DNA of 47,199 nt, filler included, from Catajapyx aquilonaris (taxonomy: Eukaryota): assembly GCA_000934665.2 (NCBI GenBank). It is 2 parts of 2 records of this genome, joined end to end, with 100 filler letters (N's around TTAATTAATTAA, not from the genome) between each part and the next. Parts side by side here need not be neighbours in the genome. Positions count along the whole stretch, not along the records: positions 23,661 to 47,199 come from JYFJ02005664.1; 1 more part is not named here. One strand, 5' to 3'. Below, one piece after another: positions 3,025 through 43,775 of this stretch. Under the pieces are notes generated by a model. That model saw only the letters and a list, made by a program, of their open reading frames with translations, did not search any database and was not told the DNA's origin. How positions within the stretch are numbered: the first letter of the stretch is position 1; every line of letters begins with the position of its first letter. Position numbers and translations under genes: made by a program.

Positions 3025-3101
<77 letters not shown>

Positions 3102-3803: not shown

Positions 3804-3846
<43 letters not shown>

Positions 3847-14010: not shown

Positions 14011-14293
14011 CCTGCCGGGGCGTTTTGCAGAGGGTGCTCACCTGAGAGCGCCATGAGACATTTTGGAGCCCAGGTAAGTGGCGACCCTACCGCTGAACTT
14101 TATAGGTACGAAAGAGAAGCGCTACATTGGGGGGCCCAACATGGCCGCCGGCGGTCATGTTGGGCCAGCATGTAGCGCTTCCCTTTCGTACCTATAAAGT
14201 TCAGCCTAGTCCGGTAGGGTCGCCACTTACCTGGGCTCCAAAATCTCTCATGGTGCTCTCAGGTGAGCACCCTCTGCAAAATGCCTCGGCAGG
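14011..14293. mobile_element. Foldback/MITE-like palindromic element
   Basis: ~135-bp arms (CCTGCCGGGGCGTTTTGCAGAGGGTGCTCACCTGAGAGC and its reverse complement) around ATGGCCGCCGGCGGTCAT. Confidence 0.8.
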
Positions 14294-16462: not shown

Positions 16463-16809
16463 TAATAATAATAATAATAATAATCCGGGTAGTGCTTGAC
16501 CTCATCTGAGGTATATAGCACGGACCTTTATTTATGTCTCGTACATATATTGGAACCTTTATACGTAACGCCCGGGCCCACGGGCAGGATGACAGGAGGG
16601 GATGTGCAAGGTGCAGTGCAATGTCTTTATGTGGCCATTTTTAGTGAACTCCCCCGGGTGGTTTAATCTGTGGAAATACCACCCGAGACGAAGCCAGAGG
16701 TGACCCTGAACTCTGCACGAGATGAAGGGGGTGTCCCCGGGCTGGGATCGAACCCGGGACCTTAACATCCGTGGGCACATACGTTACCGCAGCACCACTC
16801 CGCCTCCCC
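16396..16809 (-). mobile_element. tRNA-derived SINE (family A), full length, (TTA)n/(TAG)n tail
   Basis: A box TGGTGCTGCGG and B box GGTTCGATCCC; microsatellite tail; near-perfect TSD AACTAATAT(A/C)CTACTA at 16380-16395 and 16810-16825; second copy at 36401. Confidence 0.88.
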
Positions 16810-22950: not shown

Positions 22951-23560
22951 GCATTTTTTCTGGTTTTATACCAGTTTGCTATTATTTTGCACTCTCTATT
23001 CCTTACCAAAATATTTGTATATTAATTACAGAAATGGATAGAGATGATATCTCAAAAAAGGTCAGTTCATGATGAATCTGTCAAAAAATATGTGCGTACA
23101 TTTGCATTTTAGCAGTCGCATGGGTCAACATGTGTGAAATGGCTGCTCGAGGCAAGACGGAGACGAGCATGGTGTATCCCCATCAGGCAGAAAAGTTAAT
23201 CTGGAGAAAAAAATTATCCGAGAAGATTTAGTTTCCAAAAGATACTCCAAGAAAATGGGAAAAAATAAGCGGCATTAGAAAATCCCTGATACAGAAGCTG
23301 GCGACTCAGATGACACTCGTGTCTCTATTGTTAATATATATAGGCTACCTCTATTCCCAATATCATGATGTACGGTGTCCTGTGGAGTTTGTGGCAGGTG
23401 GGCACACTGTGCCTGTGCGGGGTCCGACAACGAGACAGTTGCACAGCCGTTCTGTGTATGTGACTTAAAGGGACACTCCAGTCTGAAGACAAGTTGATGT
23501 CTAAAAATCAGGCAAAAAATCCTGACCCCAACGCAAAAATCCGTTTGTCTCAAAACAGAA

Positions 23561-23660
23561 NNNNNNNNNNNNNNNNNNNNNNNNNNNNNNNNNNNNNNNN
23601 NNNNTTAATTAATTAANNNNNNNNNNNNNNNNNNNNNNNNNNNNNNNNNNNNNNNNNNNN
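23561..23660. other. Assembly gap with artificial all-frame-stop linker
   Basis: 44 N + TTAATTAATTAA (23605-23616) + 44 N. Confidence 0.97.
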
Positions 23661-23760
23661 GAGTAACGATGCCCGCTGGCGGCAACATTACGAGTCGCAA
23701 CGGACGGGCTGGCGCATGCGCGCTGATATGGGAAAGCCTCGCCCCACGCCAGGCTCAAAA

Positions 23761-24375
23761 TTGGCAATTTTTGTGAAAATGGTTTTTAAACGTGTTCGAA
23801 CTGTATCCTGACATAAGATTCGAGTTCGGCGACTTCGTATCATTGCTAGGAATCGACTCCTTAATCGTCAATTTCCTGCGAAAAATACGGTTCCGATATT
23901 GTAACAATGGAGGCCATTTTCATTATTGGCCGCCATATTGGCTTCAAACGTGTTCAAACTGTATTCTGACATTAGAATCGTGTTCAGCGACTTCGTATTG
24001 CTAGGAATCGACTCCTCAACCGCCAATTTCCTGCGAAAAATACCTATCTTGTAACAATGGAGGTTATTTCCATTATTGGCCGCCATATTGGTTTCAAACA
24101 TGTTCAAACTGTATTCTGACATTAGAATCGTGTTCAGCGACTTCGTATTGGTAGGAATTGACACCTCAATCGTCAATTTCCTGCGAACAATACCGATTTT
24201 GTAACAATGGAGGCCATTTTCATTATTGGCCGCCATCTTAAATCCTAATGGACGAAATTTCCGGTTCCACTTCCGGAATCATTCCTTATGGTCCTAGGAA
24301 GCACCATGCCAAGTGGCACACTTTCATCATCAAATGCCAGGTTTTTCCGAAATATGGCCCTTACCGCTTCCACTA
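23761..24375. mobile_element. Non-autonomous element with ~3 internal tandem repeats of 150-158 bp
   Basis: Units start at 23788, 23946 and 24096; ends in TACCGCTTCCACTA like the element at 1-663. Confidence 0.7.
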
Positions 24376-24466
24376 GTAGCAAAGGTATACCGTACCTGAT
24401 GGTGACAGTGAATTATTGCTGAAGAAGTAACTGTACGCTCTGGCAATTTCCCCCCCCCTCNTCCAG

Positions 24467-24700
24467 AGGTATGCCATCGATGAGTTGCTGAAGAAGGCCA
24501 TCAAGGTGTGCAGAATTCCCCCGTACCATTGTCATTACAACCACATCGAGCAAGTGTGGGCGAAGCTCAAGCACTACTAGAACTACCATGTGGCAAGGGC
24601 AGGCAGGTTTGGTCGCGATCAGGGCCGAGGAAACGACTATAAGCCGTGTGTTTTCTGCTGGAGATGAGGCGGTCCATACGTGACAGCATATTTCCCTGAG
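24467..24700 (+). pseudogene. IS630/Tc1/mariner-family DDE transposase fragment
   Basis: Hand translation RYAIDELLKKAIKVCRIPPYHCHYNHIEQVWAKLKHY* matches the LPPYHC.LNPIE.VW motif. Confidence 0.8.
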
Positions 24701-24939
24701 CTCGAGCAAAAACCGAGACAGCAGAGCAAGGGTGGAGTTTTCCAACTCATTTTAAGATGAAATCTGGACAGTGGAACAAATTTTATTTTCGAAATGAAGA
24801 TAAATATTGTCCACGTGACACCTAATCTCATCATTAACAAGAGCAGCACTATTTACAAGAATGCTGAACTAGAGATCATTTTCAATGGAGGTAGATTATT
24901 GATCTGTGGTCAAAATCTGTTCCTTCAACAGCTGGCGTT

Positions 24940-25245
24940 GACAGCCTGTTGGAAAAAGTCCTCGAAGTACAGGCATGCTGTGGCACAGGAATCTCCAGCA
25001 AAGTTCGCAGCGCAACGTTTACTGCACAGGCAGGATTGCACCAATGAAGTAAGCATGGATACAGGTGGAATGCCAATCCTGAACATCTGGTGCAATATGT
25101 GGATGACCACATCAGGAGTTTCCCTAGAAGACATTCCCACTACAGTCGCCAGGCCAACACGAAACATGACTATCTATCCCCTGAACTGTCAGTCAAGAAG
25201 ATGCACATGCTGTATCTAGAGAAATGTGAACCGGAGCAGTATCTG
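24940..25245 (+). pseudogene. Transposase fragment (Sola1-like N-terminal region)
   Basis: DHIRSFPRRHSHYSR...YLSPELSVKKMHMLY motif. Confidence 0.65.
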
Positions 25246-25689
25246 TTGATGGACGCAGGAAAACCTACGACGCCTAAGATAAGTGGTGTGGTTGAGATCT
25301 GATGGATAGCCTGATGGCAAATGCTGCAGACATTGCTGAGACATATCCTATAATCCATGTTATATTAATGGATGGGAGGGATGCAGATATTCTGGACAAG
25401 TGCTACATGAGCAAGTCATGTGATGAGGCATATTGTGGCTATGTTGTAGAGTGATTATTCTAAATAATCTGACATGTGGGAATATAGCGGCAAAGGACCG
25501 ATGTAATGCAGGCTTCCTGGCGCCAAACGGCCATAAAAGGGCTATTAGAGCTGGTCCCAGAAAAGGGATAATCCAAGGGGTTCGCATCAGTATGTTTCGT
25601 AGCACCTTGCACCCCTCCGGCCTTACAGGCCACGTCGATAGTGCCGGGGAAAATCATACAGTGAGAAATAATATATTACAAAACAAGAG

Positions 25690-26245
25690 GCTCTTTTACA
25701 AGGATTACCAACCATTTTCTATTGTGGGGGAGGAAGGATTTCGCGAATACACTTGGACACTGAACCCTTCATACAAGCTTCCTAATCGGAAAACCTTATC
25801 CCAATCCACTTTACCTGCCATGTATGAAGTCTTCGTCGTAGAGACGAAAGAAAAACTTAGTGGGGCAGCAACAGTCTGTTTGTCAAATGATTGTTGGAGG
25901 TCATTAGCAAATGACAGTTACCTGGCTGTCATTGCGCACTACATTGGCGAGTCTGTCCTGCTGGAATGCGATGTGACGGAGGGGCGACACACTTCAGGTA
26001 ACTTGGGTGGAGAAATTCAGAGCATAGTATCCGACTGGGGACTGGCAGGAAAGGTGGAATTGCTGGTGACTGACAACGCCAGTATCATCGTGGGTGCTGC
26101 AGAAAAGCTAAAATGGAAGCCCTTCGGCTGCTTCGCTCACGGCCTCAACTTGGTTGTAAAGAAGGGGCTAGAACCTGCCGATGTTATTCTCCAAAAAGTC
26201 AGCCAAATAGTGTCCTATTTTCGCAGAAGTCCTCTAGCAACAGTG
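25690..26245 (+). pseudogene. hAT (Ac/ZBED-like) transposase fragment
   Basis: QPFSIVGEEGF, PSYKLPNRKTL, DCWRS, SYLAVIAHYI, VTDNAS, CFAHGLNLVV. Confidence 0.9.
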
Positions 26246-26247
26246 TA

Positions 26248-26640
26248 GCCTGCTATGTATACCATGAGGTTGTGGCCAAGAAAGGCCCAAATAAGATGGT
26301 GTCAAGGCTGTTCCACTACATCAAACAGAAGCTGCCAAGTGATTGTCAATCAAGAAAACAATTGCGCCAAGCAGGTAAAGAATATGCTAATGCTGAGCAG
26401 AAGGTAATTGCTGCCAAAACTGTAAAAATCATGAAAGACTATCACAATAGTTGCAAGTTTCAGTGCGCTAAGAAAATCACACATCAACAGAGAGAGGATA
26501 CATTTAAAGCTTTTCATAGTTATGACCAAAATAGGGAACACCATCACATTGTCTCCACAAGCGAAAGGTATGCTAAAAAACGTAACACTACAAGCCATAC
26601 TAGCAGTATACACAGTGTTGATTGTAAAACATTCAAGTAA
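26248..26640 (+). pseudogene. Two short Sola1-like transposase fragments
   Basis: CYVYHEVVAKKGPN resembles the CYLWHEG..RG.NE motif; followed by RKQLRQAGKEY...CKFQCAKKIT. Confidence 0.5.
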
Positions 26641-26815
26641 AACAAACACTTTTTGTATCACCAGTTGTTGTTCTTTGTGTCTTGTGATAATGCAGGACCA
26701 TGAAGGACAAAATAAAATCATGTGATTCGTAAGACATGATAAACATTGGTTTCCTTTATTTGTACTTCTGATTATTTGAAGAGAAAACTAAATTATGTAC
26801 TAAGAAAAGCCCCCC

Positions 26816-26954
26816 CGCGGTAAGGGAAAGAAGCGGCTAAGGGGGTGGAGGCAGGAAGATGCAGAGGCCTACCACGCCGCCTCGCGGTAAGGGAAAGAAG
26901 CCGCTAAGGGGGTGGAGGCAGGAAGATGCAGAGGCCTACCACGCCGCCTCGCGG
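26816..26954 (+). repeat. 67-bp tandem duplication (2 copies)
   Basis: CGCGGTAAGGGAAAGAAG..GCTAAGGGGGTGGAGGCAGGAAGATGCAGAGGCCTACCACGCCGCCT at 26816 and 26883. Confidence 0.95.
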
Positions 26955-27848
26955 GTCCCCTCAGTGGCCGCTTCTTCCCCTTCTGCTGGCCCCAGTGGTG
27001 CCGCCCCAACAACAGCCGCCCCAACCAGAGCTGCTCCAACATCATTGATGTAACACAGATTACGTGTGGTTGGCAAAAGACCCATACGACAGTTATGATG
27101 ATACATCACCGGACCAGTTCAGACGGCCCCCACAACAGGATCCCAGCCCCCCTGAGAGGAGCTGGCGCCTGTTCCCGCGAACTTACCTCCCAGCAAGGGG
27201 GAGGACGGGACTGCCGCAGCAGGGTGCTCGTGCCCACCACCCCCTATGACCCTATGACCACCGATGTACGGGATGCCCTGTGAGAATGGTATTCTATACA
27301 CTGGAATGATAATGTTACGGATTGTCAAGAACAAATACTACTGTCCGATTGCTTCATTTGCAACAGACGTCAATAACCTACCAAGTCTTGCTATAAAAAG
27401 TACCATTAAACGCCGCAAATGGGCCTTCCAACGTAAACAAATCTGACTACAGGCTCATACATTTCATATAGCTTATGTAACGCTTAAAGGGTAGTCAGAA
27501 TTTCAGACTTTCACCAAGGCTTAGTTATGCCACACCCTGTAGGCGTTGCATCATGCATCATTTTTAGACAAATGACAGTCATTATAATTATATAGGTATT
27601 ATTTAAAATTTTATAGAATCCATACTGTATTTATAGTTTAATACTGTATTGTGAAATACTTTAGGTTCAATTCCTTAATTTTGGAATCTTAGCTTAGGCA
27701 TTATTATATAACTTTATTGATATAGATGTTATTTTGTCCATTGAATCACATCATATTTGTTTTCTGCATAACATATCTCGTGCCCTATACGTTGCAGGTA
27801 CACACCCACAAGACACAAGAAAATGAACAATTTGGCGTGCCTCACGTG

Positions 27849-28359
27849 TCAGTTGAAAGTGTCACCAATCAAAATGACGCTGTCAACTACCCGGTTGAAT
27901 TCCTCAACTTTCTGAATCCACCAGGTCTACCTCCCCACAAACTGTCTCAGGCTGGGGTCACCAATCATGCTCCTACGAAATCTCGATCCCCCAAAATTGT
28001 GCAATGGCACGCGGCTGCAGGTGACTGGATTGACACGATTTGTCGTACAAGCTGTGGTACTCACAGGTTGTGCCAAAGGGGAGCGCGTGATGATCCCGCG
28101 CATACCTCTCATCCCGAGTGACTACCCCTTCCAATTCAGACGCCTGCAGTTCCCTGTCAAACTCTGCTTTGCCATTGCAATCAACAAGGCGCAAGGGCAA
28201 TCCCTCGGAGTGGCGGGGATTGATTTGAGGGAGCCATGCTTCTCACATGGCCAGTTTTACGTAGCGTGCTCCAGAGTCAGCTCTAGAAACAACCTCTACA
28301 TTCTCACACCTACCACGAGTATGACCCGAAACATTGTGTACAAAGAGGCGCTCATGTAA
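27849..28359 (+). pseudogene. Helitron Rep/Hel PIF1-type helicase C-terminal fragment
   Basis: [16 protein letters not shown] / [17 protein letters not shown]...RRLQFPV..FAIAINKAQGQS...FSHGQFYVACSRV...NIVYKEAL; one frameshift. Confidence 0.93.
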
Positions 28360-28409
28360 TTGAGTCCCTTTTACGTTCACTTCCTGTTTCAATAAGATTA
28401 CGTAGCCTG

Positions 28410-28920
28410 TTGTGTCGTCACATTGCGTACAGCCATTTTTACTCTAGCTTGATCTACATTGTTAAGGCTCTGGAAGTCATAGCATATGATATGCATTTGG
28501 ACTCTGTATCGCCAGATTTTTCTGGAGGGTGGGATGTAGATTCAAAAAGTCAGGCTGCATCTTTAGTGTCAGCCATATGTTCATTGCATTTTTTGGTTAC
28601 ATTTTCGGTCATGTATTACTTTCTAAGTCACCTGGAGGGAAACACAATTCGCCTCCAAGGCACCACTCTTGATGTTGTTGATGCATATTATGCAGAAATT
28701 CATGTCATTAAGGATACGTACAAAGAGCTGAGGGCATCTGTGATGTAGAGTTTCAAAAGGTGTATTCACATGCCATGCGAATAGCGAATCAGCTTGAAGT
28801 GTACACCACGGATAGTGAAGTGTCAGACAAATAGGTCTAGTACGCCAGCAAGTACACCAAAAGAATACTACCTGCGTAACATTGGCACACCATTTTTAAA
28901 CAACATAATTGGTCAGTTGG
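28410..28920 (+). pseudogene. hAT transposase fragment (THAP/ZMYM-like subgroup)
   Basis: IVKALEVIA...AASL...LQGTTLDVVDAY; PRIVKCQTNRS...PKEYY...PFLNNIIGQL. Confidence 0.7.
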
Positions 28921-28924
28921 ACAG

Positions 28925-29065
28925 GCCAACGACTTCCGACCCTGCGAAAGGTGAGAATTCAGGTCTATACTACGTTTCGGTCAACATATTTGTGCGAGAG
29001 TGCGTTTTCCAACACGAACTTCGTAAAAAATAAGTACAGAAGCAATCTGTTGCAAGAACACCTGC
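28925..29065 (+). pseudogene. hAT C-terminal dimerisation fragment (Buster/SPIN-like)
   Basis: STYLCESAFS...KNKYRSNL. Confidence 0.85.
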
Positions 29066-29909
29066 AAATTGCACAACTGGCTTCAGCTTTAATTCTGAGG
29101 ATGACGCCGGCGACACTTCATTCCTTGGTAACATTAGTCGAAGGAAACCCACCTGTATATTTAATTAACACGTAATACAGGGTTATTTTGAATGTAAAGG
29201 CAAAAGCGTCATTAGCAAATGCGTCAGTGAATTCCTTCACGGAATCTTGTTCAATAATGCTACGTGAGACGCGACAGTGGGTTCAGAGGAAATTAGATGG
29301 CAACTCGGGCATTTATTGTGCATATGCCAAATACTGTTGCAGACACTTTTCATTAATATAATACGTGGCTAAGGATAATAACTGCTCCCTCAGGACATGT
29401 TCAAAACATATTCTTGTGCTTCCGGGAGTCTCGCTCATCTTTTGCAGAGTAAGATCAATACTTGCGTCCGGTGGCAGCGGATACCCACCTAATCACACTA
29501 GTGGGTTGGTCAATATCAAAGTGAGGCATAAATATTTTGTGGGCAAGGAATAACTAACTGCTGTGCCTGAAAATCTTTGGTGGAATAGCCCTCGTGAAAA
29601 GTTGAACGCTACAAAAAGATATCAAGCGTATAACATCATATTAATTGCACAACGATGTTCTTTGCCTTTAAACATTGCAGATGGGCAAGCCAGAACATTA
29701 TGTCAGCCAAGGCCCCCGGATATTTTTCCCGGAGGAAGGAGATCAAGAGATATTGTTGCCACCAACCTACAGCCTTGACAGGTGGTTCATTCTCCTTGCC
29801 TATGTTACATTAAAAACCTCACATACACGAGCATGTTTTCTCAGCTATTGGGACTCTTGCAAGCGCTGATGAAGACTTGATAGATGCTGTGTTAAAAATC
29901 AAGAGCCAA
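29035..29909 (+). repeat. Long direct repeat, copy 1 (~875 bp)
   Basis: Aligns end to end with 32231-33116; roughly 20 substitutions and small indels by eye. Confidence 0.95.
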
Positions 29910-30299
29910 CACGAGGTCGACGTGGTTCATATCGTGCGTCGGATTTGTCTTGGAGGGCACCAACCAGGTCATGGCGCCAACAGGAGGGGGCTTGGGAAGA
30001 AAATACGGGTAGGAATGAGCAGGCCCGGATATTAACACCCCCTGGGTCCTCTTGGGAACAGGCAGGTGTTATCAGCTGTTTTAAGTGCGGAGGCTTAAAT
30101 CATTTTGCTAGGTATTGCCGACAGGGTTATCAGAGCTCGGGAAACGGATCAGGGCCCTCCGGGTTCCATGCATAGGTGCCAGGGGGGGCCGTCAGACGAG
30201 TGGTCAATCAGAAGGAGTCCGAGACTATAGAAAATGAGTCCTCTCCCCTGGTTAGACTGCATATAGGAAACAAAGAGGCCACCTTCCTAATTGACAGAG
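29910..30299 (+). mobile_element. Ty3/gypsy LTR retrotransposon fragment: gag C-terminus with zinc knuckle and start of aspartic protease
   Basis: CFKCGGLNHFARYC (CX2CX4HX4C, 30077-30118); slippery heptamer GGGAAAC at 30139-30145; PLVRLHIGNKEATFLIDRG is a protease N-terminus truncated at the D[ST]G active site. Confidence 0.85.
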
Positions 30300-30776
30300 G
30301 AGAGCAGTGGTTCTGATAGTGAGGTCCTTTCATTGCAAGGGCAAAGTTCACCAGCATCTGAGTTTGAAGAGGTGCCCGGTCCTGGAAAGAAAGACCACAG
30401 GAGGGCTAAAAGGCAGAGCGTCCCCTTCAGCGAAAAGGTTGCTAGTGTGCTAGGGGAAGAAGCAGCAGAGCATTTCCGATCTAGACATCTAGCGTGGAAA
30501 GCAGAGTGGGAGCACCTTAGGGCTCGGCAGAGGGATTGGGACAGAGGTGACCAAGAGAGGGCTGAGGCATTCAAGACTCTAAAGCCTATCATAGGGAAGG
30601 GTAGAGCACAGTCAGTCACCTATCACGGCATCACATCCGCTAAAAGATCCCGTTCGACACCTAGACGAGAGACTAAGAAGAGCCAGAGGGCCAAGAGCTC
30701 AAGCGAGGTCACTTACCCGAGAGTCAACAGGGTTGTCAAGTTTGACGAAGGCTTCTACTATGGCGGATCCCATTGA
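30291..30776 (+). CDS. Uninterrupted ~160-codon orphan ORF (5'-truncated, no ATG), overlapping the nucleocapsid start by 17 nt; probably viral
   Basis: Stop-free frame from the protease junction; acidic/Ser-rich start, charged helical middle, R/K/S-rich end; no recognisable family. Confidence 0.5.
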   Translation: MTEESSGSDSEVLSLQGQSSPASEFEEVPGPGKKDHRRAKRQSVPFSEKVASVLGEEAAEHFRSRHLAWKAEWEHLRARQRDWDRGDQERAEAFKTLKPIIGKGRAQSVTYHGITSAKRSRSTPRRETKKSQRAKSSSEVTYPRVNRVVKFDEGFYYGGSH

Positions 30777-31534
30777 GGCCTTCCTTGATACGGCAGATCT
30801 GGAGAGCATGGATTCCTGGGCAGCTATGGCCAAGGAGCTTTCAGACTACTCCTATCAGGGCTTTGACCCCAAGGTGACAGCCAAGCAGTTTCTGGCCACT
30901 GCTGCTGCAGCCAAAAGAGATGCCAAGAGAGATCTCCAGAGCATCCTGGCTATTTACCTCAAGAGAGGGACAAATGTCCAGAAGATGATCACAAAAGGCT
31001 TCAAAAAGGAGCTGGGAAGACAAAATCACTGACCTGCACACTGTTTATGGCATCAAGGGCCACAGGTCGGGGACAGGGCTTGCCCCAGAGGTCTTAACAA
31101 TAGGGAGAATCGCCACAGTTTATGGCATGGGAGTGTGCGCAGCTCTCCAAGTTCAGGCTGCCACCCCAGTTGTTTCCCATGCTGGCCTCCCTAGGTGCAT
31201 GATGACCCCATGTTTTGCCAGCATCATCCCCACTGAAGCTGATGGGGGTGGCATATGGGACAACTTGGCTTATGCCCACATGATGTGGTCAGCTAACTTT
31301 GACAGGGTGATCAATAAGACGAAGCCCAACTGGGTGGAAGACATGGTGGCAGTGGCCAACTTCTGCACTCTTGCCAGAGATGGCAGTATCTACACGAGGG
31401 CAAGGAAGATAGCAGCCCTGGAGAAATGGGGCATCATTGTGGTGGCCAAGGATGGAGGGGCCACAATTGCGGATGCCTATCGCCAGGCCATCCTAGATGC
31501 GGCCAAACTAGCAAAGGCCAAGATGGGCATTTAG
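30760..31534 (+). pseudogene. N: Endogenous viral element: Phenuiviridae-like (phlebovirus/tenuivirus family) nucleocapsid N gene, ~257 aa, single +1 frameshift near 30990-31020
   Basis: Colinear motifs YSYQGFDP, RDLQSILAIYLKRGTN..KM, YGI, LTIGRIA, LPRCMMTPCFASIIP, AHMMWSANFDRVIN and RKIAALEKWGII match the phlebovirus N pattern FAYQGFD / RGN..KM / LTLSRVA / YPR.MMHPSFA / AH.L...FSRVIN. Confidence 0.9.
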
Positions 31535-31595
31535 ACCATCTCAGGAGAGGGAGAAAGGGAGAGAAAAGAGAGAGTCAGATAACGAAAGGAGATAA

Positions 31596-32230
31596 ATGAT
31601 GGACGGTCTGGTGGCAATACTAACACTGGTGGCGATATACACGAGCCCCAGTGCCACTGCGCCCGACGCCGCAGTGATAAGGGAGGGCCTTGCCTTCATA
31701 CCAGGTGGGGACTTCCTCCTCTCCGGCAACCATTGGACCATCGTGACAGATGTCCCCTAACAGCACTATGACGGCTTGATGGGTAGCCTGTAGCGGGACT
31801 ACCAGAAATTTAATGCTTTTCTTTCAGGTGCCAGGAGGGACTTGAGGGGGAACGAGACGGACAACGAGTTTGCTACTTTAATTCAGTACCTTAAGGTCAA
31901 GGAAGGAAGCCACCTGCTTCAGGAAATCAATTGGCTTGTCCATCGCATACAGGAACTGAAGGGGGTTTTCGCGGTTCCTAAGAGGACTAGAGAAAAACGT
32001 GCGTTGATTAATGCGGGTGGCAGTGCACTTAAATGGCTTTTTGGCACTTTGGATAATGACGACATGAACATAATTAATAAGAAATTAGAGTCCATGGGGA
32101 ACCGGAATAACAAGCTATTACATTTGGTCAAAGAACAAGTGAGTGTTTTGGATTCAGTCAATGCACGGGAAGTTAGGACCAAGAAACTCTTGGGAAAATT
32201 AGTTAATGTCACAGGTGATCTGAGTAGGCC
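31596..32230 (+). pseudogene. env: Errantivirus/baculovirus F-type envelope (env) N-terminal fragment
   Basis: One frame with two stops: signal peptide MMDGLVAILTLVAIY, GLAF...WTIV, furin site REKR followed by fusion peptide ALINAGGSALKWLFGTLDNDD and a heptad region; truncated by repeat copy 2. Confidence 0.85.
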
Positions 32231-33116
32231 TACAGAAGCAATCTGTTGCAAGAACACCTCCAAATTGCACAACTGGCTTAAGCTTTAATTCTGAGGATGA
32301 CGACGGCGACACTTCATTCCTTGGTAACATTAGTCGAAGGAAACCCACCTGTATATTTAATTAACACGTAATACAGGGTTATTTTGAATGTAAAGGCAAA
32401 AGCGTCATTAGCAAATGCGTCAGTGAATTCCTTCACGGAATCCTGTTCAATAATGCTACGTGAGACGCGACAGTGGGTTCAGAGGAAATTAGATGGCAAC
32501 TCGGGCATTTATTGTACATAATTATGCCAAATACTGTTGCAGATACTTTTCAATATATGCCAATATAATACGTGGCTAAGGATAATAACTGCTCCCTCAG
32601 GTCATGTTCAAAACATATTCTTGTGCTTCCGGGAGTCTCGCTCATCTTCTGCAGAGTAAGATCAATACTTGCGTCCGGTGGCAGCGGATACCCACCTAAT
32701 CACACTAGTGGGTTGGTCAATATCCAAGTGAGGCATAAATATTTTGTGGGCAAGGAATAACTAATTGCTGTGCTTGAAATTCTTTGGAGGAATAGCCCTC
32801 GTGAAAAGTTGAACGCTACAAAAAAATATCAAGCGTATAACATCATATTAATTGCACAACAATGTTCTTTGCCTTTAAACATAGTAGATGGGCAAGCCAG
32901 AACATTATGTCAGCCAAGGCCCCCGGATATTTTTCCCGGAGGAAGGAGATCAAGAGATATTGTTGCCACCAACCTACAGCCTTGACAGGTGGTTCATTCT
33001 CCTTGCCTATGTTACATTAAAAACCTCACATACACGAGCATGTTTTCTCAGCTATTGGGACTCTTGCAAGTGCAGATGAAGACTTGATAGATGCTGTGTT
33101 AAAAATCAAGAGCCAA
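32231..33116 (+). repeat. Long direct repeat, copy 2 (~886 bp)
   Basis: Aligns with 29035-29909. Confidence 0.95.
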
Positions 33117-33469
33117 TTAACGTCTGCAACAAAGCTTTCTTTCAGTCCAAGTGGCACCAGAAGTGATGATGACAGACGGATTGGCCTTCATACCTTCTGG
33201 ATGCCGGTGCGGTGGTTCCTTGTGACCTTCATCTCTCATGGAGAACTTAAGGACATTGCACTATCGGACCCAAGGAGTTTCAAGAACCTGCAATGCGCCG
33301 AAGCGTCTCGTGACGATCATATTCTTCGAAAATTGGCTGAACTTACCAATCACGCTGAACTGTGCAGAGAATTAATAAAATTTGCAAATCATTACGAAGA
33401 CGACAATGCAATGGTCCGCTGTGGTATTCAAAGGGCGTTTGAGAGGCAGTGCATGAGAGATCTTCATGG

Positions 33470-33750
33470 CCTTGCATGTTGCATTGTTAATTTTGGCCAG
33501 TCCCACGCTGTGCCAGTCCTTCAACAAATTCGCAGAAAAAGTGTGTGTATATTTTGTCAGAACTTATATCCTTACATATGGAGCTGAAGAGGTCTCATAC
33601 AACATCCAGGGCTTGATACGTTTAGCCTCTCATGCTGGTCTGCATGGATCTTTAGATAGATTTAGTGCATTTCGATTCGAAAACCACCTGCAAGTGCTGA
33701 AGCAGATGCTTAGAGGGATCACATAACCATTACAACAGATTAATAGACAT
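33470..33750 (+). pseudogene. CACTA/CMC-type transposase fragment
   Basis: FVRTY..TYG...VSYNI..L..L...HGSLDRFSAFRFENHL..LK motif. Confidence 0.75.
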
Positions 33751-34009
33751 GTAGTACAGAGGTCGTCATCCTATCACCTGTGGAATGAGAACCATCAGCT
33801 GCCAACAGGTGGGGGGGGGGGGGNGGGGGAACTATACTGATGACCAAAAACCAGTGCTTGCACCAGTGATGGTGAGAGCACCACCAGCAACAGCGAATCG
33901 GCTGAAGAGGACGACTTACTCAGCCGATTCACCAAGTCGAAGATCTCAAACAGGCACAGGTTGGTGAAGGCAGAGGCACAGAACCTTGTGAAGATGTGGG
34001 TCGAGGGGT

Positions 34010-34572
34010 GTTAACAGATGACGCATTCTTGGGGCAGAAAGTTTTAATTGACCTTTTTATCCAGTGTAACACCACAATCCCATCGAGTGCTGCTGTCGAG
34101 AGATTGTTCTCGATGGGAAAAGACATCCTCAAGCCCAAAAGAGCCACGCTCTCGGACACAACTTTTGAAAGATTGGTTTTTATGAGGGGAAACCATCATC
34201 ATTGGTTAATAAATGAATGATGGAGTCATGTATGCTAATGCTAACCAATAAACTTTTTTGGTGTTTGAATCATTTTGTTTAATACTTTTTGTATGGAACA
34301 GGTAATAGCGTAACTGAATTAGGCGTATGTTGTAGCAGTGCTCTCTAGTTAACTTTAGCCCTCTTTAGCACTCTAGGTCTGTTTTTATTTTTTAAAGGGT
34401 CCTAGATAAAAAAGGTTAAATTCATAAAATAAAAGCTAACTTTAGTTGTTAACGTTAACTTCCATTAATTTTTCTAGCCCTTTAACGTTTATCATTTAAT
34501 GAAGTTAAATTTTTTAGTTACTTGATTGACGGTTAATGTAGTTAAATTTTCGGTTAACTGTGCCCACCACTG
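34010..34572 (+). mobile_element. 3' end of a hAT transposon (dimerisation domain, 3' region, TIR)
   Basis: NTTIPSSAAVERLFS...PKRATLSD.TFE; AATAAA; GTTAAC-rich subterminal repeats; ends TGCCCACCACTG. Confidence 0.85.
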
Positions 34573-36400
34573 GTTATATGGATATTTACCATGCTGATAT
34601 AAAATGTATAATCCCTGCACCATAAATACACACTGGATTTTTCAGATTCTTACAGGGTAAACTGGTGCTTCCCACATGGCAAGTATAGCAATGCTATGTC
34701 GAAATTTGCAAGTGTTGCACTTACTGCAGTTATTATTATTGCAACTATAAAATACTTTGGTGGTGTGGCTATTGCCTCTTTCAGATGGAAATGAACCCAA
34801 GCCATTTAAATGGCCCAGGACCACGGAACATTCTGAGCTGCAGACATGAATTGATACAGATGCAGAGGAAACATGACCCTTTCCCATGTGTGACTCATTC
34901 TTGGAGCAATTTGTTCCATCACTCAGGCAGGAACAAGGACTTCTAGTCATCTCAAATGATGGTGGCAACCAGGCCCATGGGTCTTCTTCCCAACTGATAC
35001 CCTCACGTCGTCCCCGCCAGTACCCCGCAAGGGATCTCTTGATGGTTAGGGGATTGAAGCCCTTCCCTTCCCTCCTTATTCCCACAGGACTCGTATGCCA
35101 TCCATCAGGTTCTTCCATATGAGTCAAGTGCAGGAACTTTCGCTTCGTCCATGAAGTCACATATGATTCACTAGGCAAGGTTGGTTATGTAACTTCATCA
35201 TTCCTCTTTACCCTTAACTGATGCTCATGTTGGCCCTGAAAAGGGCCGTTTGTAATGCTGCTCCTGAAAAGGACGGGTTGGCTGAAGTGCTGCTGCTGCG
35301 GATTTCGGAGGTCGGTCGTTCCTGGTTGAAGGCTGGAGATGAAGTGAAGTTGCCCGCGCCTTGGTGCTGTTTTTTATAGGCAAGGCGCAGACGTTGTGGA
35401 GGTCAAGCCAGAGCTGGTTGGTTCTGGCCTTGAAGGCTTTTGGTGGGAAATGAGCTGGGGACAGGAATGGTTTGGAGGGCAATGCGAGTGAGAGGAAGTT
35501 TGACGGTGAGACGAAGCCGGCAGGGCCGGGCATGCCTGCCGGCTCACCATACCTCATCATCCTTCATGGCTCTTCCCAAAAGACTGGGGTTGCCAGCAGA
35601 TAGCAAGGATGAGGTCCTCGCTACCCCCACCACAACCATCAGAAATTTTTTTGGGAGACTGGTCAGGTACTCGCAGAAATTGGGAGGGCGAGAAATACAA
35701 CAGAGTGCCGAATGGTCAGGTTATGCTGGGTTGCTGTTTGCGGTGTCCCTGGAGACATCCAACAGCAAAGAACAAGGTGAGGCAGGGGTGCCTCTCACTG
35801 CTGAGTTGTTGGAACCACCAGACCGCAACACCATCACCGTGCAGGGGACGAAGGAGGGCAGGAAAACCTCCCGGCTTCCGTTTGAAGTGCCTTCTACTTG
35901 CTGCATCATTGCCAACAGGTAAAGCATATGATATAAAATCCAGATGTGATGCTGTGTGGATGTGCCCTTTCCAATCTGCAAGAAGAGGAAAGTAGGTTTT
36001 AATTTTCAATTTATATCACACAGTCCGGACATTTCAAAAATGGCAATCACAACACTTAGCATGCAAATGTCATAAAATATACTAACAGTACTCCCTTTTC
36101 CCTGAAAAAAATTATGTCCAAGTCATGTTACTTTCGTGGCAAAATTAATGTAAAAAATCTGTTACTGGCTAATATTGGACACTTTTTGGAGAGTACGAAA
36201 ATTTTTCTAATTTCCCAGCCGAAGGGTCGAGAGTAGGCCACGTGTACAGAAAGGCTCAATTTCCTGATCTCCGTCCACCAGACGTACCGAAAGAAGTGTT
36301 CGACTCGATTGTGACGATTGAATCCTTGAATCTAAGAGTAGGCAATTGTCCATAACGGAAATTTTTTTCACAACAAAACAATGAGGTACATTGTAAGTGT

Positions 36401-36730
36401 AAGGGGGAGACAGAGTGGCGCCGCGGTAACGTCCGCGTCCACGGATGTTAAGGTCCCGGGTTCGATCCCAGCCCGGGGGACCCCCCCCTCATCTTGTGCA
36501 GAGTTCAGGGTCACCTCTGGCTTCGTCTCGGGTGGTATTTCCTACAGACTAAACCACCCGGGGGAGTTCACTAAAAATGGCCACCCCGTCAGATGCACTG
36601 CACTTTGCACATCCCCTCCTGTCATCCTGCCCGTGGGCCCGGGCGCTTCAAAAATAGGATTCCCAAAATTGTATACCATCGCAATAAAGGTCTGGCAGAA
36701 GACCCCTCCGGGGTTAGCCGAATACCCAAT
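36401..36730 (+). mobile_element. tRNA-derived SINE (family A head and body, different 3' tail)
   Basis: Near-identical to the reverse complement of 16565-16809; exact 12-bp TSD CATTGTAAGTGT at 36389-36400 and 36731-36742. Confidence 0.88.
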
Positions 36731-37484: not shown

Positions 37485-37660
37485 GGTTGAACGGCTTTTT
37501 AGCCATGCAGGTTGCACTGAAAAAGGCGCTCTCATGCTATACAGGTAGGGTACTGAACAAAGTAGTGTACTACTGTACAGTAGTGTGTACAGTTCCCTGT
37601 CGGTATAGCAGGAGAGCGCCTTTTTCAGTGCAACCCGCAAGGCTAAAAAGCAGTTCAACC
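37485..37660. mobile_element. Short foldback/MITE-like palindrome
   Basis: GGTTGAACGGCTTTTTAGCC..GTTGCACTGAAAAAGGCGCTCTC and its reverse complement. Confidence 0.75.
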
Positions 37661-38390
37661 CATGCTGCAAGTGCCAGTCGGTGGCAGTTTATTGATTACT
37701 AGTGTTTCTAAGTGTTTTATAAAACCGACCAGGGTTGTCGCCACCTACGATTTTTCCCCACCCCCTCGCGCGCGCTTGACCCGTGACTCTGAAACACCCT
37801 GTATTGTCCACTTACAATAATTTTAATAACATTTAAAATGCAACAATTCCTCATTGTCATACTCCAATCGAGGTACTGCCGCATCGATCAAATAGCTTTG
37901 ACTATATGAAATGCTGCATGTACCCCTCGAAAACTGGGCACACACTATTGTAATTAAAATTATGATCATGTCAATAGCACATTTACAGCTTCAAATGCAA
38001 AAAATATTGCAGCCATGACATTCAAGCCCCGGTTTTCGCTACCTTGAGACAGCTATTTAAAAACTGAGTTTCACTTTTTCATCTAATATTATGAGGAACT
38101 CCCAATAAAAACATGGTAGTGCACTACAAAATCAATACTACTAACTACAGGGGGAAAAAATCCAGCCTAGAGTTGAAGCAACATTGCATAAAATTGTGGG
38201 CTCATAACACAACCTCACAATATGGCAACAGTGGATGACAATTTCAAACATATGCAGCCCTACACCTGGCACTATTGACATCACAGAAGTTAAACTCGGC
38301 CCAAACTCGTTGTATCCCATTGTAGTAACTATCACAGTAATCCATCACATAGCGTAGTGCTACTAGTACATAACAGGCATTTCTTTTATA

Positions 38391-38919
38391 CAGGGTGTAA
38401 ATGAATTCAGCCGACAAACTTGTAGGGGTAATAGAGGGGACCAAGACAAACATATTTGACATAGGAACCCGTGTCCAGAAACGCCATCTAGAGGGGGTTC
38501 ATAGACAAGGAATGGGTGCGCTCAGACCCCGTCAGGCGAGAGGCGCTAACGAGCGGACCATTTAGTTGCTAGGTGGCGTGTGGATTGTACACAACTTTGC
38601 AATTCGCCATAACTTGGCAACAACAGAGTTGTTGTTTATTATCTGCGCGCTACCTAGCATGCTGATTTTAGTTGTTAGGTGGCTCTGTTGTTGCCAGGTT
38701 ATTGCGAAATGCAAAGTTGTGTACAATCCGCCCGCCACCTAGCAACTAAACGGCCTGCTCGCTAACGCCGCTAGCCTGACGCGTCTGAGCGCACCTGTTC
38801 CTTGTCTATGAACCCCCTCTAGATGGCGTTTCCGAACACGGTTTCCTATGTCAAATATGTTTGTCTTGGTCCCCTCTACTACCCCTACAAGTTTGTCGGC
38901 TGAATTCATTTACACCCTG
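38391..38919. mobile_element. Foldback MITE, Tc1/mariner type
   Basis: TA-CAGGGTGTAAATGAATTCAGCC...GGCTGAATTCATTTACACCCTG-TA with ~240-bp arms. Confidence 0.9.
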
Positions 38920-39574
38920 TATTCTTTCAGTGAACTATTATTTGTCTCCCTTTGTCATTTTTCAAGTTAAGCATATTTTGTCTCTCATGAATGCTATTAT
39001 TGTCTTGTACATATTTCTCTAATGGCGAACAACCAGTAAAGGACAATTATATAATAGCACAATTATTTACCTGATCACAAAAACTCTCGTTTCATCAGAG
39101 CTCTGGCGGGTTGTAACAATCATCCTCCCCAGATGAAGGTCAGCTTGCAGAAGTTTCAGGAAGTACTGCTTGCCCCAAGCACCTTGTGGCATGTGGAACT
39201 AGTTGCGGTAACCTGTAAACAATTCCAGCATTAGATTTCAACTGTCACTCCCAGGACATGTTTTGTACATTACAAAATTTAAACACTAATTCCCCAGATT
39301 AGTAAAAAATTCTGCATCCAGGAATCCGGTTCACCTCCCACTTTGAAATTTTCTTTGTGCCAAGTGGCATCTGCGGAAGAGTCAAAACCACACCTCTCAA
39401 CCTAACTTGTCCAAACGTGCAAATCACTACTGCTCGCACTCCACTCCCTAAACAACTAATCCAATCTGCACACCATTCAGTTTGTCAACAACTCTCCACA
39501 CCCCTTATCCATACTCCCCATGCAAGGAGCAATACTCATAAACCAACAATGGATGCACCGCCCTCAAAATTGTA

Positions 39575-43473: not shown

Positions 43474-43775
43474 GACCGAAGCAGGTTGGCATAGTGGATA
43501 AGGCGTCCGACTGCTAATCGGAAGGTCCTGGGTTCGAATCCCGGTGCCGGCAACTCTAACCGTGGTTTTCTGTGGTTTCCCACGGTTTCTCCAGGAGAAT
43601 TCCGGAGTTGTTTCCTAATAAACAGGCCACAGCCGCCCCCTTCCTTTCCTATCCTCTCCCAAAGAGCAATAAGTAAAAATGCAAGCAAAGAGTTCCAGAC
43701 AAAACAAAAATTCCCCCCTAAAGAGCCGCCGGCTGATAACGGGGTATGAATTATTATTAATTATTAATTATTATT
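43474..43775 (+). mobile_element. tRNA-derived SINE (family C)
   Basis: A box TGGCATAGTGG, anticodon-like arm TCCGA-CTGCTAA-TCGGA, B box GGTTCGAATCCC, ATT-rich tail, exact 15-bp TSD AATTGTATAAATTGG at 43459-43473 and 43776-43790. Confidence 0.9.

What the first reader, a model, noticed from the sequence alone, without database searches (positions are those of the whole stretch)
24467..34572. Strand-biased patchwork of transposon coding scraps: candidate piRNA-cluster-like immune archive
Seen: at least 11 abutting 100-600 bp coding fragments from unrelated superfamilies (IS630/Tc1, Sola-like x3, hAT x4, Helitron, gypsy, CACTA-like) plus the viral N. They have almost no spacer, mostly lack their own termini or TSDs, and every one I could assign is on +. 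Intact MITEs and SINEs, frequent elsewhere in the window, appear absent here. Established: uni-strand piRNA clusters accumulate co-oriented TE and EVE fragments antisense to the precursor. Inference: a minus-strand transcript would give antisense guides against many TEs and the virus. An alternative explanation is fragment capture by a large Helitron or hAT.
Basis: partly seen in the sequence, partly recalled or inferred. Interest (0 to 1): 0.75.

Follow-up and report, generated by a model that had tools for sequence, protein, structure and literature searches.

The report
Co-oriented transposon scraps holding a viral gene
A 10-kb stretch of animal DNA is a real pile of decayed transposon pieces that all face the same way and enclose a bunyavirus-type nucleocapsid gene, which looks like a small-RNA defence locus of a known kind, though this could not be tested here.

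Summary
The observation largely holds. In 24467-34572 nearly all coding remnants lie on the + strand. ORFs of 150 aa or more number 8 on + and 0 on - (shuffles give about 0.2). Pfam hits at E<0.01 fall on 8 of 99 + ORFs and 1 of 114 - ORFs.

Confirmed by tools: a Helitron helicase tail, three different hAT pieces, a weak Tc1-like piece, a gag zinc knuckle, an F-type env start, and a nearly complete phenuivirus-type N gene with one frameshift. The "Sola-like" and "CACTA-like" pieces could not be confirmed.

New points:
- gag/N/env form one retroelement-virus hybrid block (29910-32230).
- That block is flanked by an 875/886-bp direct duplication that is not an LTR.
- One hAT piece keeps its 3' end at 34572.
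- The fragments are therefore about 5-6 independent events, not 11 or more (chance of co-orientation 0.03-0.06).
- The window is two contigs joined by a spacer at 23561-23660.

The architecture matches published uni-strand piRNA clusters with TE-EVE hybrids. Small RNAs, transcription and copy number were untestable here. I put the piRNA-cluster reading at about 0.4. It would be a new member of a known kind.

The parts
24431..24577 (+). Tc1/IS630-like transposase remnant (C-terminal part of the DDE domain)
   Evidence: Pfam DDE_3, E 4.9e-4, 20.4 bits, below the cut-off of 28.6, profile positions 96-131 of 146. Individually weak.
25048..25299 (+).
   Evidence: No Pfam family at E<=10. The + orientation rests on the open frame only.
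25427..26245 (+). hAT transposase RNase-H-like core remnant (hAT1), 273-aa open frame
   Evidence: Atlas first hit 0.93, 175 of 256 shared features, ZBED1 RNase-like / Hermes; all ten best family-bearing hits share that family. Pfam and PDB found nothing.
26246..26637 (+).
   Evidence: Atlas 0.79, a lead only. No Pfam family. BLASTP against the window's DUF7869 remnant aligns the expected motif at E 0.11, not significant.
26809..27041 (.). Short tandem repeats: 67-bp unit x2.2 and 15-bp unit x2.8
   Evidence: Tandem Repeats Finder; the repeat finder family D10.
27726..28359 (+). Helitron Rep/helicase C-terminal remnant, including its stop codon; one frameshift
   Evidence: 27916-28356 matches Helraiser (7lcc) residues 1345-1474 of 1496, E 1.3e-29. 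Pfam Pif1_2B_dom 2.7e-11. Upstream continuation in a second frame, 27726-28118.
28590..29172 (+). hAT transposase C-terminal remnant (hAT2), in three frames; runs into repeat copy A1
   Evidence: Pfam Dimer_Tnp_hAT, E 2.7e-3, on 28909-29172 (residues 7-53, crossing the A1 boundary at residue 43). The stretch 28590-28908 is assigned by eye from recalled motifs.
29035..29909 (+). Direct repeat copy A1 (875 bp): hAT2 tail plus about 740 bp of non-coding sequence
   Evidence: blastn against 32231-33116: 96.6% over 886 columns, i.e. 19 substitutions and 2 indels. Both boundaries are sharp.
29910..30313 (+). LTR-retroelement gag remnant: zinc knuckle at 30074-30124, then a protease-like motif seen only by eye
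   Evidence: Pfam zf-CCHC, E 2.5e-4, 21.4 bits against a cut-off of 20.8. The protease motif got no Pfam support; it was read by eye.
30291..30773 (+). 161-aa open frame 'X' of unknown origin, between the gag remnant and N
   Evidence: No Pfam family at E<=10.
30760..31534 (+). Endogenous phenuivirus-type nucleocapsid (N) gene: start to stop, one frameshift at about 31005-31016
   Evidence: Pfam Tenui_N on both halves, profile positions 23-73 and 79-223 of 224. Solved phlebovirus N proteins match at chain residues 12-85 and 82-230. In the library of 1.84 billion representatives only 17 hits, the best at 33% identity, E 2.9e-9. 12 of the 12 hits tested are Tenui_N.
31596..32230 (+). Retroelement env (baculovirus-F / gypsy type): start codon and N-terminal third, two frames, cut off by A2
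   Evidence: Pfam Baculo_F, E 8.7e-6, profile positions 131-202 of 609; Gypsy, E 0.025. Start at 31596 read.
32231..33116 (+). Direct repeat copy A2 (886 bp)
33117..33723 (+). Open frames 'Y' (188 and 89 aa) of unassigned origin; the 188-aa frame runs on from A2
   Evidence: Pfam nothing relevant at E<=10 (only EzrA, E 0.015, 14.1 bits against a cut-off of 39.6, on 33021-33584). No homologues. AlphaFold2 model at pLDDT 41.3, unusable.
33844..34572 (+). hAT transposase C-terminal remnant (hAT3) with its 3' subterminal region and a terminal-repeat-like end at 34558-34572
   Evidence: Pfam Dimer_Tnp_hAT, E 2e-3, on 33906-34217. The end motif was read; its only other matches in the window are two 3-mismatch sites downstream of it, at chance level.

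Best explanation
SHOWN
- The region is a nest of decayed, truncated transposon pieces whose coding sense is uniformly on the + strand. It lies 0.8 kb from a contig start, next to a 150-bp satellite.
- The pieces come from Tc1-like, hAT (three different ones) and Helitron elements.
- Inside it sits one retroelement-virus hybrid block (29910-32230): gag zinc knuckle, an unknown 161-aa frame, a nearly full-length phenuivirus-type N gene, then the start of an F-type env, all co-linear.

INFERRED, step 1: The hybrid arose when a retroelement's reverse transcriptase switched templates onto viral N mRNA and back, so that N replaced pol. It was then inserted without LTRs into the pre-existing nest. 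The insertion duplicated 0.88 kb of the target (A1 and A2, 97.8% identical at aligned bases), so it is younger than the surrounding mosaic.

INFERRED, step 2, the functional claim: The locus is, or is part of, a uni-strand piRNA cluster. On this reading a long minus-strand transcript starts to the right of 34572 and is processed into antisense piRNAs against these transposon families and against the cognate virus. Co-orientation is kept because only antisense insertions are useful or tolerated.
For: - Strand bias. ORFs >=150 aa number 8 against 0, with shuffles at about 0.2. Pfam hits fall on 8 of 99 + ORFs against 1 of 114 - ORFs, p=0.013. + frames cover 67% of the region, - frames 28%. The + strand is 53.2% purine, against 49-51% in the flanks.
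- The fragments are truncated and from different families. There is no protein-level similarity among them at E<=1e-3 apart from A1/A2.
- Hybrid block. CCHC, Tenui_N x2 and Baculo_F lie in one orientation within 2.3 kb. No reverse transcriptase or integrase domain occurs in any of the 213 ORFs.
- The flanking duplication has sharp, non-LTR boundaries.
- Published parallels, read as passages. [quoted passage not shown] Uni-strand clusters hold antisense insertions, and antisense nrEVEs are enriched in somatic clusters (PMC13172572).
Against: - No small-RNA or transcript data exist here, so the functional step is pure inference.
- Only 5-6 verified units are independent, and two or three of them rest on sub-threshold Pfam scores. 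Chance co-orientation is 0.03-0.06, not tiny.
- AATAAA plus ATTAAA hexamers number 16 on the minus strand against 8 on the plus strand. This does not favour an unbroken minus-strand precursor.
- The content is mostly DNA-transposon remnants, unlike the LTR-dominated flamenco and Aedes clusters.
- A TE trap should also collect the MITEs and SINEs that are common nearby, yet none is inside.
- The known length is only 10 kb.
- The species is unknown, so whether it makes piRNAs from such loci is also unknown.
- Copy number could not be checked.
Confidence: 0.4

Rival explanations
1. An inert transposon graveyard. Nested insertions, deletions and one hybrid insertion in repeat-rich DNA left a handful of fragments that face the same way by chance and shared history. 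No small RNAs of consequence are made.
For: - Independent verified units number only 5-6, or 4-5 if hAT1 and hAT2 are two halves of one interrupted copy. They are non-overlapping, in the right order and in the same sense. That gives P=0.03-0.125 for co-orientation.
- One window was picked from a genome scan, so selection among many loci inflates such coincidences.
- The poly(A) hexamer excess on the minus strand and the lack of MITE or SINE capture do not look like an active trap.
- Outside the block orientation is not uniform: a DUF7869 transposase remnant lies on the minus strand at 46076-46861.
Against: - The unassigned long + frames raise the count of co-oriented coding pieces to 9-10, P 0.002-0.004. 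Five of the eight ORFs >=150 aa on + have no Pfam family (24761-25216, 25427-26245, 26074-26637, 28287-28745, 30291-30773) and a sixth, 33021-33584, has only a weak sub-threshold EzrA hit. Of these six, the Atlas places 25427-26245 in hAT, while 28287-28745 (assigned to hAT2 by eye) and 30291-30773 (inside the hybrid block) lie within units already counted.
- The minus strand shows no excess of long frames at all (0 ORFs >=150 aa).
Confidence: 0.3
2. The block, or most of it, is one copy of a multi-copy composite. It could be the interior of a very large non-autonomous hAT or Helitron that captured fragments, or a segmental duplication. In that case co-orientation reflects a single assembly history.
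For: - hAT3 keeps a 3' end at 34572 whose 5' partner could lie beyond the contig start at 23661.
- The block contains no MITE or SINE and shares no DNA with the rest of the window, as expected for a recently arrived block.
- The internal 3.2-kb A-B-A duplication shows the locus does undergo large duplications.
Against: - No inverted repeat longer than 31 nt (at 71% complementarity) occurs anywhere in 23661-36000, and none pairs the two ends.
- The Helitron piece is only the last 130-190 residues of a roughly 1500-residue protein, and no Rep domain was found in the 213 ORFs. It is itself a scrap, not the carrier.
- The closest protein in the 50%-identity representative library is only 33% identical to the N piece, and word-index searches with three of the block's frames found nothing. 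This is weak, because these libraries under-sample unannotated eukaryotic repeats, and a library of cluster representatives could not show extra copies in any case.
Confidence: 0.15
3. Orientation filtering by a host gene. The block lies in an intron or UTR of a minus-strand gene, and selection removed sense-oriented TE insertions. Antisense (+) fragments remain, without any piRNA role.
For: - Antisense bias of intronic TEs is established knowledge (recalled, not looked up here).
- The only clear host gene in the window, an animal haem peroxidase, is on the minus strand at 2424-9396.
Against: - That gene lies on the other side of an N44-TTAATTAATTAA-N44 spacer at 23561-23660, so linkage is not established.
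- No exon-like Pfam hit exists on the minus strand of the right-hand contig except a transposase remnant.
- The minus strand carries 16 poly(A) hexamers in the block, which is awkward for an intron.
Confidence: 0.08
4. The whole mosaic, not only the gag-N-env block, is a collage cDNA. It would have been made by serial template switching of a reverse transcriptase among transposase mRNAs and viral mRNA, so that all pieces are sense-oriented and lack termini.
For: - The pieces are mostly coding, sense-oriented, abruptly joined and without TSDs.
- The gag-N-env block is best explained this way (for the published mechanism).
Against: - hAT3 carries about 350 bp of non-coding subterminal DNA and a terminal-repeat-like end.
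- A1 and A2 carry about 740 bp of non-coding sequence.
- Tandem repeats lie at 26809-27041.
- These are DNA-level features not expected in mRNAs. The 0.88-kb duplication also shows the hybrid entered a mosaic that already existed.
Confidence: 0.05

Closest known systems
flamenco-like uni-strand piRNA cluster of Aedes aegypti ('cluster 38'; Aguiar et al. 2020, PMC7161354; abstract and passages read)
   Same: [quoted passage not shown] The EVE is co-oriented with the TE fragments, and the elements are non-functional.
   Different: The Aedes locus is 143 kb, with a demonstrated single antisense transcript, phased piRNAs and PIWI5/6 loading. Here only 10 kb is known and there are no expression data. 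There is one EVE, and the content is mostly DNA-transposon remnants.
EVE / LTR-retrotransposon associations in the Aag2 genome (Whitfield et al. 2017, bioRxiv 10.1101/127498; passages read)
   Same: The EVE is flanked by Ty3/gypsy-type retroelement pieces in the same orientation. Template switching during reverse transcription is proposed as the origin. A phenuivirus (PCLV) nucleocapsid EVE is among their examples.
   Different: Here N is at most 33% identical to anything in a library of 1.84 billion representatives, so it is not a PCLV-like recent EVE. The hybrid lacks LTRs and is flanked by a 0.88-kb duplication. The surrounding fragments are hAT, Helitron and Tc1 rather than LTR elements.
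Drosophila flamenco (as described in the introduction of PMC13172572; passage read)
   Same: A uni-strand architecture with predominantly antisense transposon insertions. An env-carrying gypsy-type element is represented.
   Different: flamenco is dominated by gypsy-family LTR elements and has no viral EVEs (the latter is recalled, not checked). Function is shown there and not here.
Anakin: Pao retroelement / chuvirus glycoprotein hybrids (Dezordi et al. 2020, PMC7642597; abstract and passages read)
   Same: A viral gene recombined into an LTR retroelement between retroelement genes.
   Different: Anakin gained a glycoprotein as a working env and multiplied, with complete LTRs. Here a nucleocapsid gene replaces pol, no LTRs are present, the piece is truncated at both ends, and it carries a frameshift. 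It is a dead hybrid, not a new retrovirus.

Membership tests
uni-strand piRNA cluster | TE and EVE remnants predominantly in one orientation | tested here: met
   ORFs >=150 aa: 8 on +, 0 on -. Pfam hits on 8 of 99 + ORFs against 1 of 114 - ORFs. All 6 verified units are on +.
uni-strand piRNA cluster | Abundant 24-31-nt, 1U-biased small RNAs from one strand, antisense to the TEs | not testable with these tools
   No small-RNA data and no access to the source genome or read archives.
uni-strand piRNA cluster | A long single-strand precursor transcript from a defined promoter | not testable with these tools
   No RNA data. The only indirect count, poly(A) hexamers at 16 on - against 8 on +, is mildly unfavourable.
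uni-strand piRNA cluster | Extent of tens to hundreds of kb | tested here: inconclusive
   The co-oriented block is 10.1 kb. The contig starts at 23661, 0.8 kb to the left, so the left limit is unknown. The right limit is the hAT3 end at 34572.
flamenco-type cluster specifically | Content dominated by gypsy or env-carrying LTR retroelement fragments | tested here: not met
   Only 1 of the 6 verified units (the gag-N-env block) is retroelement-derived. The rest are hAT x3, Helitron and Tc1-like.
non-retroviral endogenous viral element (phenuivirus-type N) | Significant similarity to a viral protein of an RNA virus without a DNA stage | tested here: met
   Tenui_N on both halves. Solved N proteins at E about 1e-4. 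17 library hits, the best at E 2.9e-9; 12 of the 12 tested are Tenui_N.
non-retroviral endogenous viral element (phenuivirus-type N) | Embedded in host or TE DNA, without the rest of the viral genome | tested here: met
   Flanked by the gag CCHC remnant and by env, then by the A1/A2 repeats. No other viral domain occurs in the 213 region ORFs.
non-retroviral endogenous viral element (phenuivirus-type N) | Signs of decay | tested here: met
   One frame change at about 31005-31016, between the two matched halves.
intact LTR retrotransposon (for the A1 - gag/N/env - A2 structure) | LTRs beginning TG and ending CA, flanked by a 4-6-bp target-site duplication | tested here: not met
   The repeat starts TACAG and ends GCCAA. 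The flanking bases differ. A1 begins inside the hAT2 reading frame.
intact LTR retrotransposon (for the A1 - gag/N/env - A2 structure) | Complete gag, and pol with reverse transcriptase and integrase | tested here: not met
   The zinc knuckle lies only about 165 bp inside the block. No RT, RNase H or integrase Pfam hit occurs in the 213 ORFs. Env is cut after about 210 codons.
Helitron as carrier of captured fragments | A Rep/helicase gene or defined 5' TC and 3' hairpin-CTRR ends enclosing the captures | tested here: inconclusive
   Only helicase residues matching Helraiser 1345-1474 of 1496 are present, and no Rep domain. A possible CTAG end at about 28444 was seen by eye, with no convincing hairpin. 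The ends were not searched systematically.
hAT as carrier (giant composite) | A pair of terminal inverted repeats with an 8-bp target-site duplication | tested here: not met
   Apart from itself, the 3' end motif at 34558-34572 matches only at 37578 and 39575, with 3 mismatches each. Both sites lie downstream of the block and the count is at chance level. A partner beyond the contig start cannot be excluded.

The most novel reading that the evidence does not exclude
This is a working uni-strand piRNA cluster of an unusual make-up, built mainly from hAT, Helitron and Tc1 coding remnants rather than LTR elements, in an animal outside the fly and mosquito models. Through a retroelement hybrid it has archived the nucleocapsid gene of a deeply divergent, otherwise unsampled phenuivirus-like lineage (at most 33% identity to anything among 1.84 billion representative proteins). 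It therefore provides heritable antisense guides against both DNA transposons and an RNA virus.
Probability: 0.3. Interest if true: 0.6.

Novelty: new member of a known kind. Interest (0 to 1): 0.4.

Why it matters
If small RNAs confirm the reading, the locus would extend the 'TE-EVE hybrid in a uni-strand cluster' model beyond mosquitoes and flies. It would show a cluster whose memory is mostly of DNA transposons.

Whatever the function, two pieces are useful in themselves.
- The first is a nearly complete N gene from a phenuivirus-like lineage that is very distant from sampled viruses. It is a fossil for dating and for host range.
- The second is a clean snapshot of how such a gene enters a genome. 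N replaces pol between gag and env, and the hybrid is inserted without LTRs and bracketed by a 0.88-kb duplication.

If small RNAs are absent, the locus is an ordinary transposon graveyard. It would then be a caution that co-orientation of a handful of fragments is weak evidence for a piRNA cluster.

Tried and rejected
1. A1/A2 as LTRs of a gag-N-env retroelement. Rejected: no TG..CA ends, no TSD, A1 starts inside the hAT2 frame, gag and env are both truncated at the repeat, and there is no pol.
2. A TIR-bounded composite within the contig. No inverted repeat longer than 31 nt (71% complementary) lies in 23661-36000. The hAT3 end motif has no partner, and neither does the A-end motif (only its 2 own copies).
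3. Helitron as carrier. Only a C-terminal scrap is present.
4. Confirming the 'Sola-like' and 'CACTA-like' pieces failed with every tool: Pfam at E<=10 on 12 frames (nothing for 11 of the 12, and only a sub-threshold EzrA hit, E 0.015, on 33021-33584), the Atlas at 0.79, two word-index homologue searches, and BLASTP against the window's DUF7869 remnant at E 0.11.
5. AlphaFold2 on 33021-33584 as a single sequence gave pLDDT 41.3 and pTM 0.30. It was too poor for a fold search, so none was run.
6. The word-index search with the N C-terminal half found nothing. The exhaustive search did find relatives.
8. The protease motif after the zinc knuckle got no Pfam support and is kept only as a by-eye remark.
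9. Rfam and tRNA scans found nothing in the region.
10. The poly(A)-hexamer count was meant as support for a minus-strand precursor, but it points mildly the other way.
11. Paralogy among the three hAT pieces, or with the flanks: none at E<=1e-3.

Not attempted:
- Complex prediction, which is not relevant here.
- The supplements of the papers cited.

Full report
CONTEXT

The window is animal DNA. A minus-strand animal haem peroxidase gene is spread over exons at 2424-9396 (Pfam An_peroxidase on nine ORFs). At 23561-23660 there is a 100-base spacer made of 44 N, TTAATTAATTAA and 44 N. The window is therefore two contigs joined artificially. The finding lies in the right-hand contig, which starts at 23661.

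Directly left of the finding is a 150-bp satellite in three copies (23784-24236). Whether the peroxidase gene is physically linked to the finding is unknown.

Yes in its main point.
- Counting every stop-to-stop frame in 24467-34572, the + strand has 14 ORFs of 100 aa or more and the - strand has 3.
- At 150 aa or more the count is 8 against 0. In 200 dinucleotide-preserving shuffles the means were 0.20 and 0.21, and never more than 2.
- + frames of 80 aa or more cover 67% of the 10,106 bases; - frames cover 28%.
- In a sliding comparison, this is the part of the window with the largest + excess.

I scanned all 213 ORFs of 30 aa or more in or touching the region against Pfam (99 on +, 114 on -).
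- At E<0.01 there were hits on 8 of the 99 + ORFs and on 1 of the 114 - ORFs (Fisher p=0.013).
- The single minus-strand hit is to an RNA-phage coat family (AP205_coat, E 6.8e-4, 20.1 bits against a cut-off of 27, at 33375-33563). It is antisense to a long + frame, and I take it as chance.

WHAT THE PIECES ARE

Firmly identified:
- A Helitron Rep/helicase tail (27916-28356). It aligns to Helraiser 7lcc residues 1345-1474 of 1496 at E 1.3e-29, with Pif1_2B at 2.7e-11.
- A phenuivirus-type nucleocapsid gene (see below).
- The start of a baculovirus-F/gypsy-type env (Baculo_F 8.7e-6).

Reasonably identified:
- A hAT RNase-H-like core at 25427-26245. The Atlas scored 0.93, with 175 of 256 shared features and all ten best family-bearing hits in the same family. 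Pfam and PDB gave nothing.
- A gag zinc knuckle (zf-CCHC, 21.4 bits against a cut-off of 20.8).

Weak individually:
- Two different hAT dimerisation tails (E 2.7e-3 and 2e-3, below the gathering score).
- A Tc1/IS630-type DDE_3 scrap (E 4.9e-4).
- With 213 ORFs scanned, about half a chance hit at E 2.7e-3 is expected. Two hits to the same transposase family are harder to dismiss, and one of them is followed by a hAT-like terminus.

Other points:
- The three hAT pieces share no detectable similarity with each other, so they are different elements or different parts. hAT1 (core) and hAT2 (C-terminus) do not overlap and lie in the right order, so they could be one interrupted copy.
They are long open + frames of unknown family.

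THE VIRAL GENE

N runs from an ATG at 30760 to a stop at 31532-31534.
- Its two halves match Tenui_N profile positions 23-73 and 79-223 of 224.
- They also match solved phlebovirus-type N proteins at chain residues 12-85 and 82-230 of about 250.
- The gene is therefore essentially full length, with one change of frame at about 31005-31016.
- It is very distant from sampled sequences. A word-index search found nothing. An exhaustive HMMER pass over 1.84 billion representatives gave only 17 proteins at E<=0.001, the best at 33% identity and E 2.9e-9.
- I ran 12 of these 17 through Pfam and all 12 are Tenui_N. Their names and sources could not be retrieved.

N is not a free-standing fragment.
- Upstream, on the same strand, lie the zinc knuckle (30074-30124), a protease-like motif seen only by eye (no Pfam support), and an unknown 161-aa frame.
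- Sixty-one bases downstream of the N stop, after a purine-rich tract, env begins with its own ATG at 31596 and a hydrophobic leader.
- No reverse transcriptase, RNase H or integrase domain is present anywhere in the region.
- The order gag - (unknown) - N - env, with N standing where pol should be, is what template switching of a retroelement's reverse transcriptase onto viral mRNA would give. That mechanism is proposed for TE-virus hybrids in the Aedes literature.

This 2.3-kb block (29910-32230) is bracketed by a direct repeat.
- A1 is 29035-29909 and A2 is 32231-33116. They are 96.6% identical over 886 columns, with 19 substitutions and two indels.
- The repeat is not an LTR. It begins TACAG and ends GCCAA, there is no short target-site duplication, A1 starts inside the hAT2 reading frame (the Pfam match crosses the boundary), and both gag and env are cut off at the repeat.
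- The simplest reading is that the hybrid was inserted, without LTRs, into a mosaic that already existed, and that 0.88 kb of the target was duplicated in the process. This is inference. Ectopic recombination is an alternative I cannot exclude.

CONSEQUENCES FOR THE STATISTICS

- Gag, N and env are one event.
- One 'hAT' is the A2 copy of hAT2.
- The verified independent units are Tc1-like, hAT1, Helitron, hAT2, the hybrid and hAT3. That makes six, or five if hAT1 and hAT2 are one copy.
- The chance that all face the same way is 0.03-0.06.
- Adding the unassigned long + frames gives 9-10 units and 0.002-0.004.

OTHER DETAILS OF THE OBSERVATION

- 'Almost no spacer' is overstated. Eight stretches of 168-735 bp have no long + frame, including the roughly 740-bp non-coding parts of A1 and A2 and a tandem-repeat patch at 26809-27041.
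- 'Lack termini' is mostly true, but hAT3 runs through about 350 bp of subterminal sequence to a terminal-repeat-like end exactly at 34572. The only other matches to that end motif are two 3-mismatch sites downstream of the block, at chance level.
- No inverted repeat longer than 31 nt exists in 23661-36000.
- The rest of the window has eight palindromic MITE-like elements of 87-618 bp and two shared repeat families. The block shares no DNA with the flanks at E<=1e-3.
- Zero MITE-like elements against 2.2 expected gives only P=0.11.

HOW IT MOST LIKELY WORKS

[quoted passage not shown] I therefore take the piRNA-cluster reading as the single most likely functional explanation, at about 0.4. 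On that reading a minus-strand precursor is diced into antisense guides.

What speaks against it:
- There are no expression data.
- The number of independent events is modest.
- The minus strand carries 16 AATAAA/ATTAAA hexamers, against 8 on the plus strand.
- The make-up is dominated by DNA transposons.
- No MITEs or SINEs have been captured.
- The known size is only 10 kb.

RIVALS

- An inert graveyard whose co-orientation is history and chance, aided by the fact that this locus was picked from a scan (0.3).
- A multi-copy composite or segmental duplication whose left end lies beyond the contig start (0.15).
- Antisense filtering inside a minus-strand host gene (0.08).
- A collage cDNA for the whole mosaic (0.05). 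The non-coding subterminal DNA, the tandem repeats and the fact that the hybrid entered an existing mosaic all count against it.

The Helitron piece is a scrap, and no bounding repeats were found. Without copy number it is not excluded.

NOVELTY

TE-EVE hybrids in co-oriented repeat nests are known, so this is at most a new member of a known kind.

The parts worth keeping are:
- the very divergent N fossil;
- the clear gag-N-env hybrid with its 0.88-kb flanking duplication;
- the possibility, if small RNAs confirm it, of a uni-strand cluster made mainly of DNA-transposon remnants in a non-model animal.

WHAT STAYED UNCHECKED

- Small RNAs, transcription and copy number in the source genome.
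- The species itself, and the names of the N relatives.
- The supplementary files of the cited papers.

Noticed in passing
window 23561-23660: A 100-base spacer made of 44 N, TTAATTAATTAA and 44 N. It looks like an artificial join with stops in all six frames, so the two halves of the window are separate contigs whose adjacency is not established.
   Followed up: partly
window 23784-24236: A 150-bp satellite-like tandem repeat, 3.0 copies, 87% matches. It lies directly left of the finding and 120 bp from the contig start.
   Followed up: no
window 2424-9396 (minus strand): A multi-exon animal haem peroxidase gene. Nine ORFs match An_peroxidase, covering profile positions 2-530 in order (E down to 6.6e-30). 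It is the only clear host gene in the window.
   Followed up: partly
window 4282-4368, 9840-10100, 14011-14293, 14393-14910, 37485-37660, 38388-38922, 39576-41344, 40560-40750: Eight palindromic, MITE-like inverted-repeat elements of 87-618 bp, 71-99% self-complementary. All lie outside the finding.
   Followed up: partly
window 16569-16809 and 36404-36645; 23465-23525 and 46879-46939: Two repeat families shared between the two contigs (90.5% in inverted orientation; 85% in direct orientation). The second begins TTAAAGGGACACTCC and may be a SINE-like element.
   Followed up: no
window 43481-43552 (+): A tRNA-Ser(GCT)-like sequence (ARAGORN; Rfam tRNA, 45 bits). It could be a tRNA gene or the head of a tRNA-derived SINE.
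   Followed up: no
window 46076-46861 (minus strand): A 262-aa open frame matching DUF7869 (E 3.3e-5, just below the cut-off). It is a transposase-like remnant on the minus strand, so TE orientation outside the block is not uniformly +.
   Followed up: partly
window 34645-35184 (minus strand): A 180-aa open frame on the minus strand, 72 bp right of the hAT3 end, with no Pfam family. Frames this long are rare in shuffles, so it may be a coding remnant or an exon at the edge of the block.
   Followed up: no
window 30001-32000: The gag-N-env block is richer in G+C (52-53%) and in purines on + (GC skew +0.12 to +0.13, AT skew +0.14 to +0.17) than its surroundings (41-46% G+C). This fits a foreign origin.
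   Followed up: no
window 31535-31595: A purine-rich tract (a run of GA-rich bases) between the N stop and the env start. It may be the junction between viral and retroelement sequence, or an env leader.
   Followed up: no
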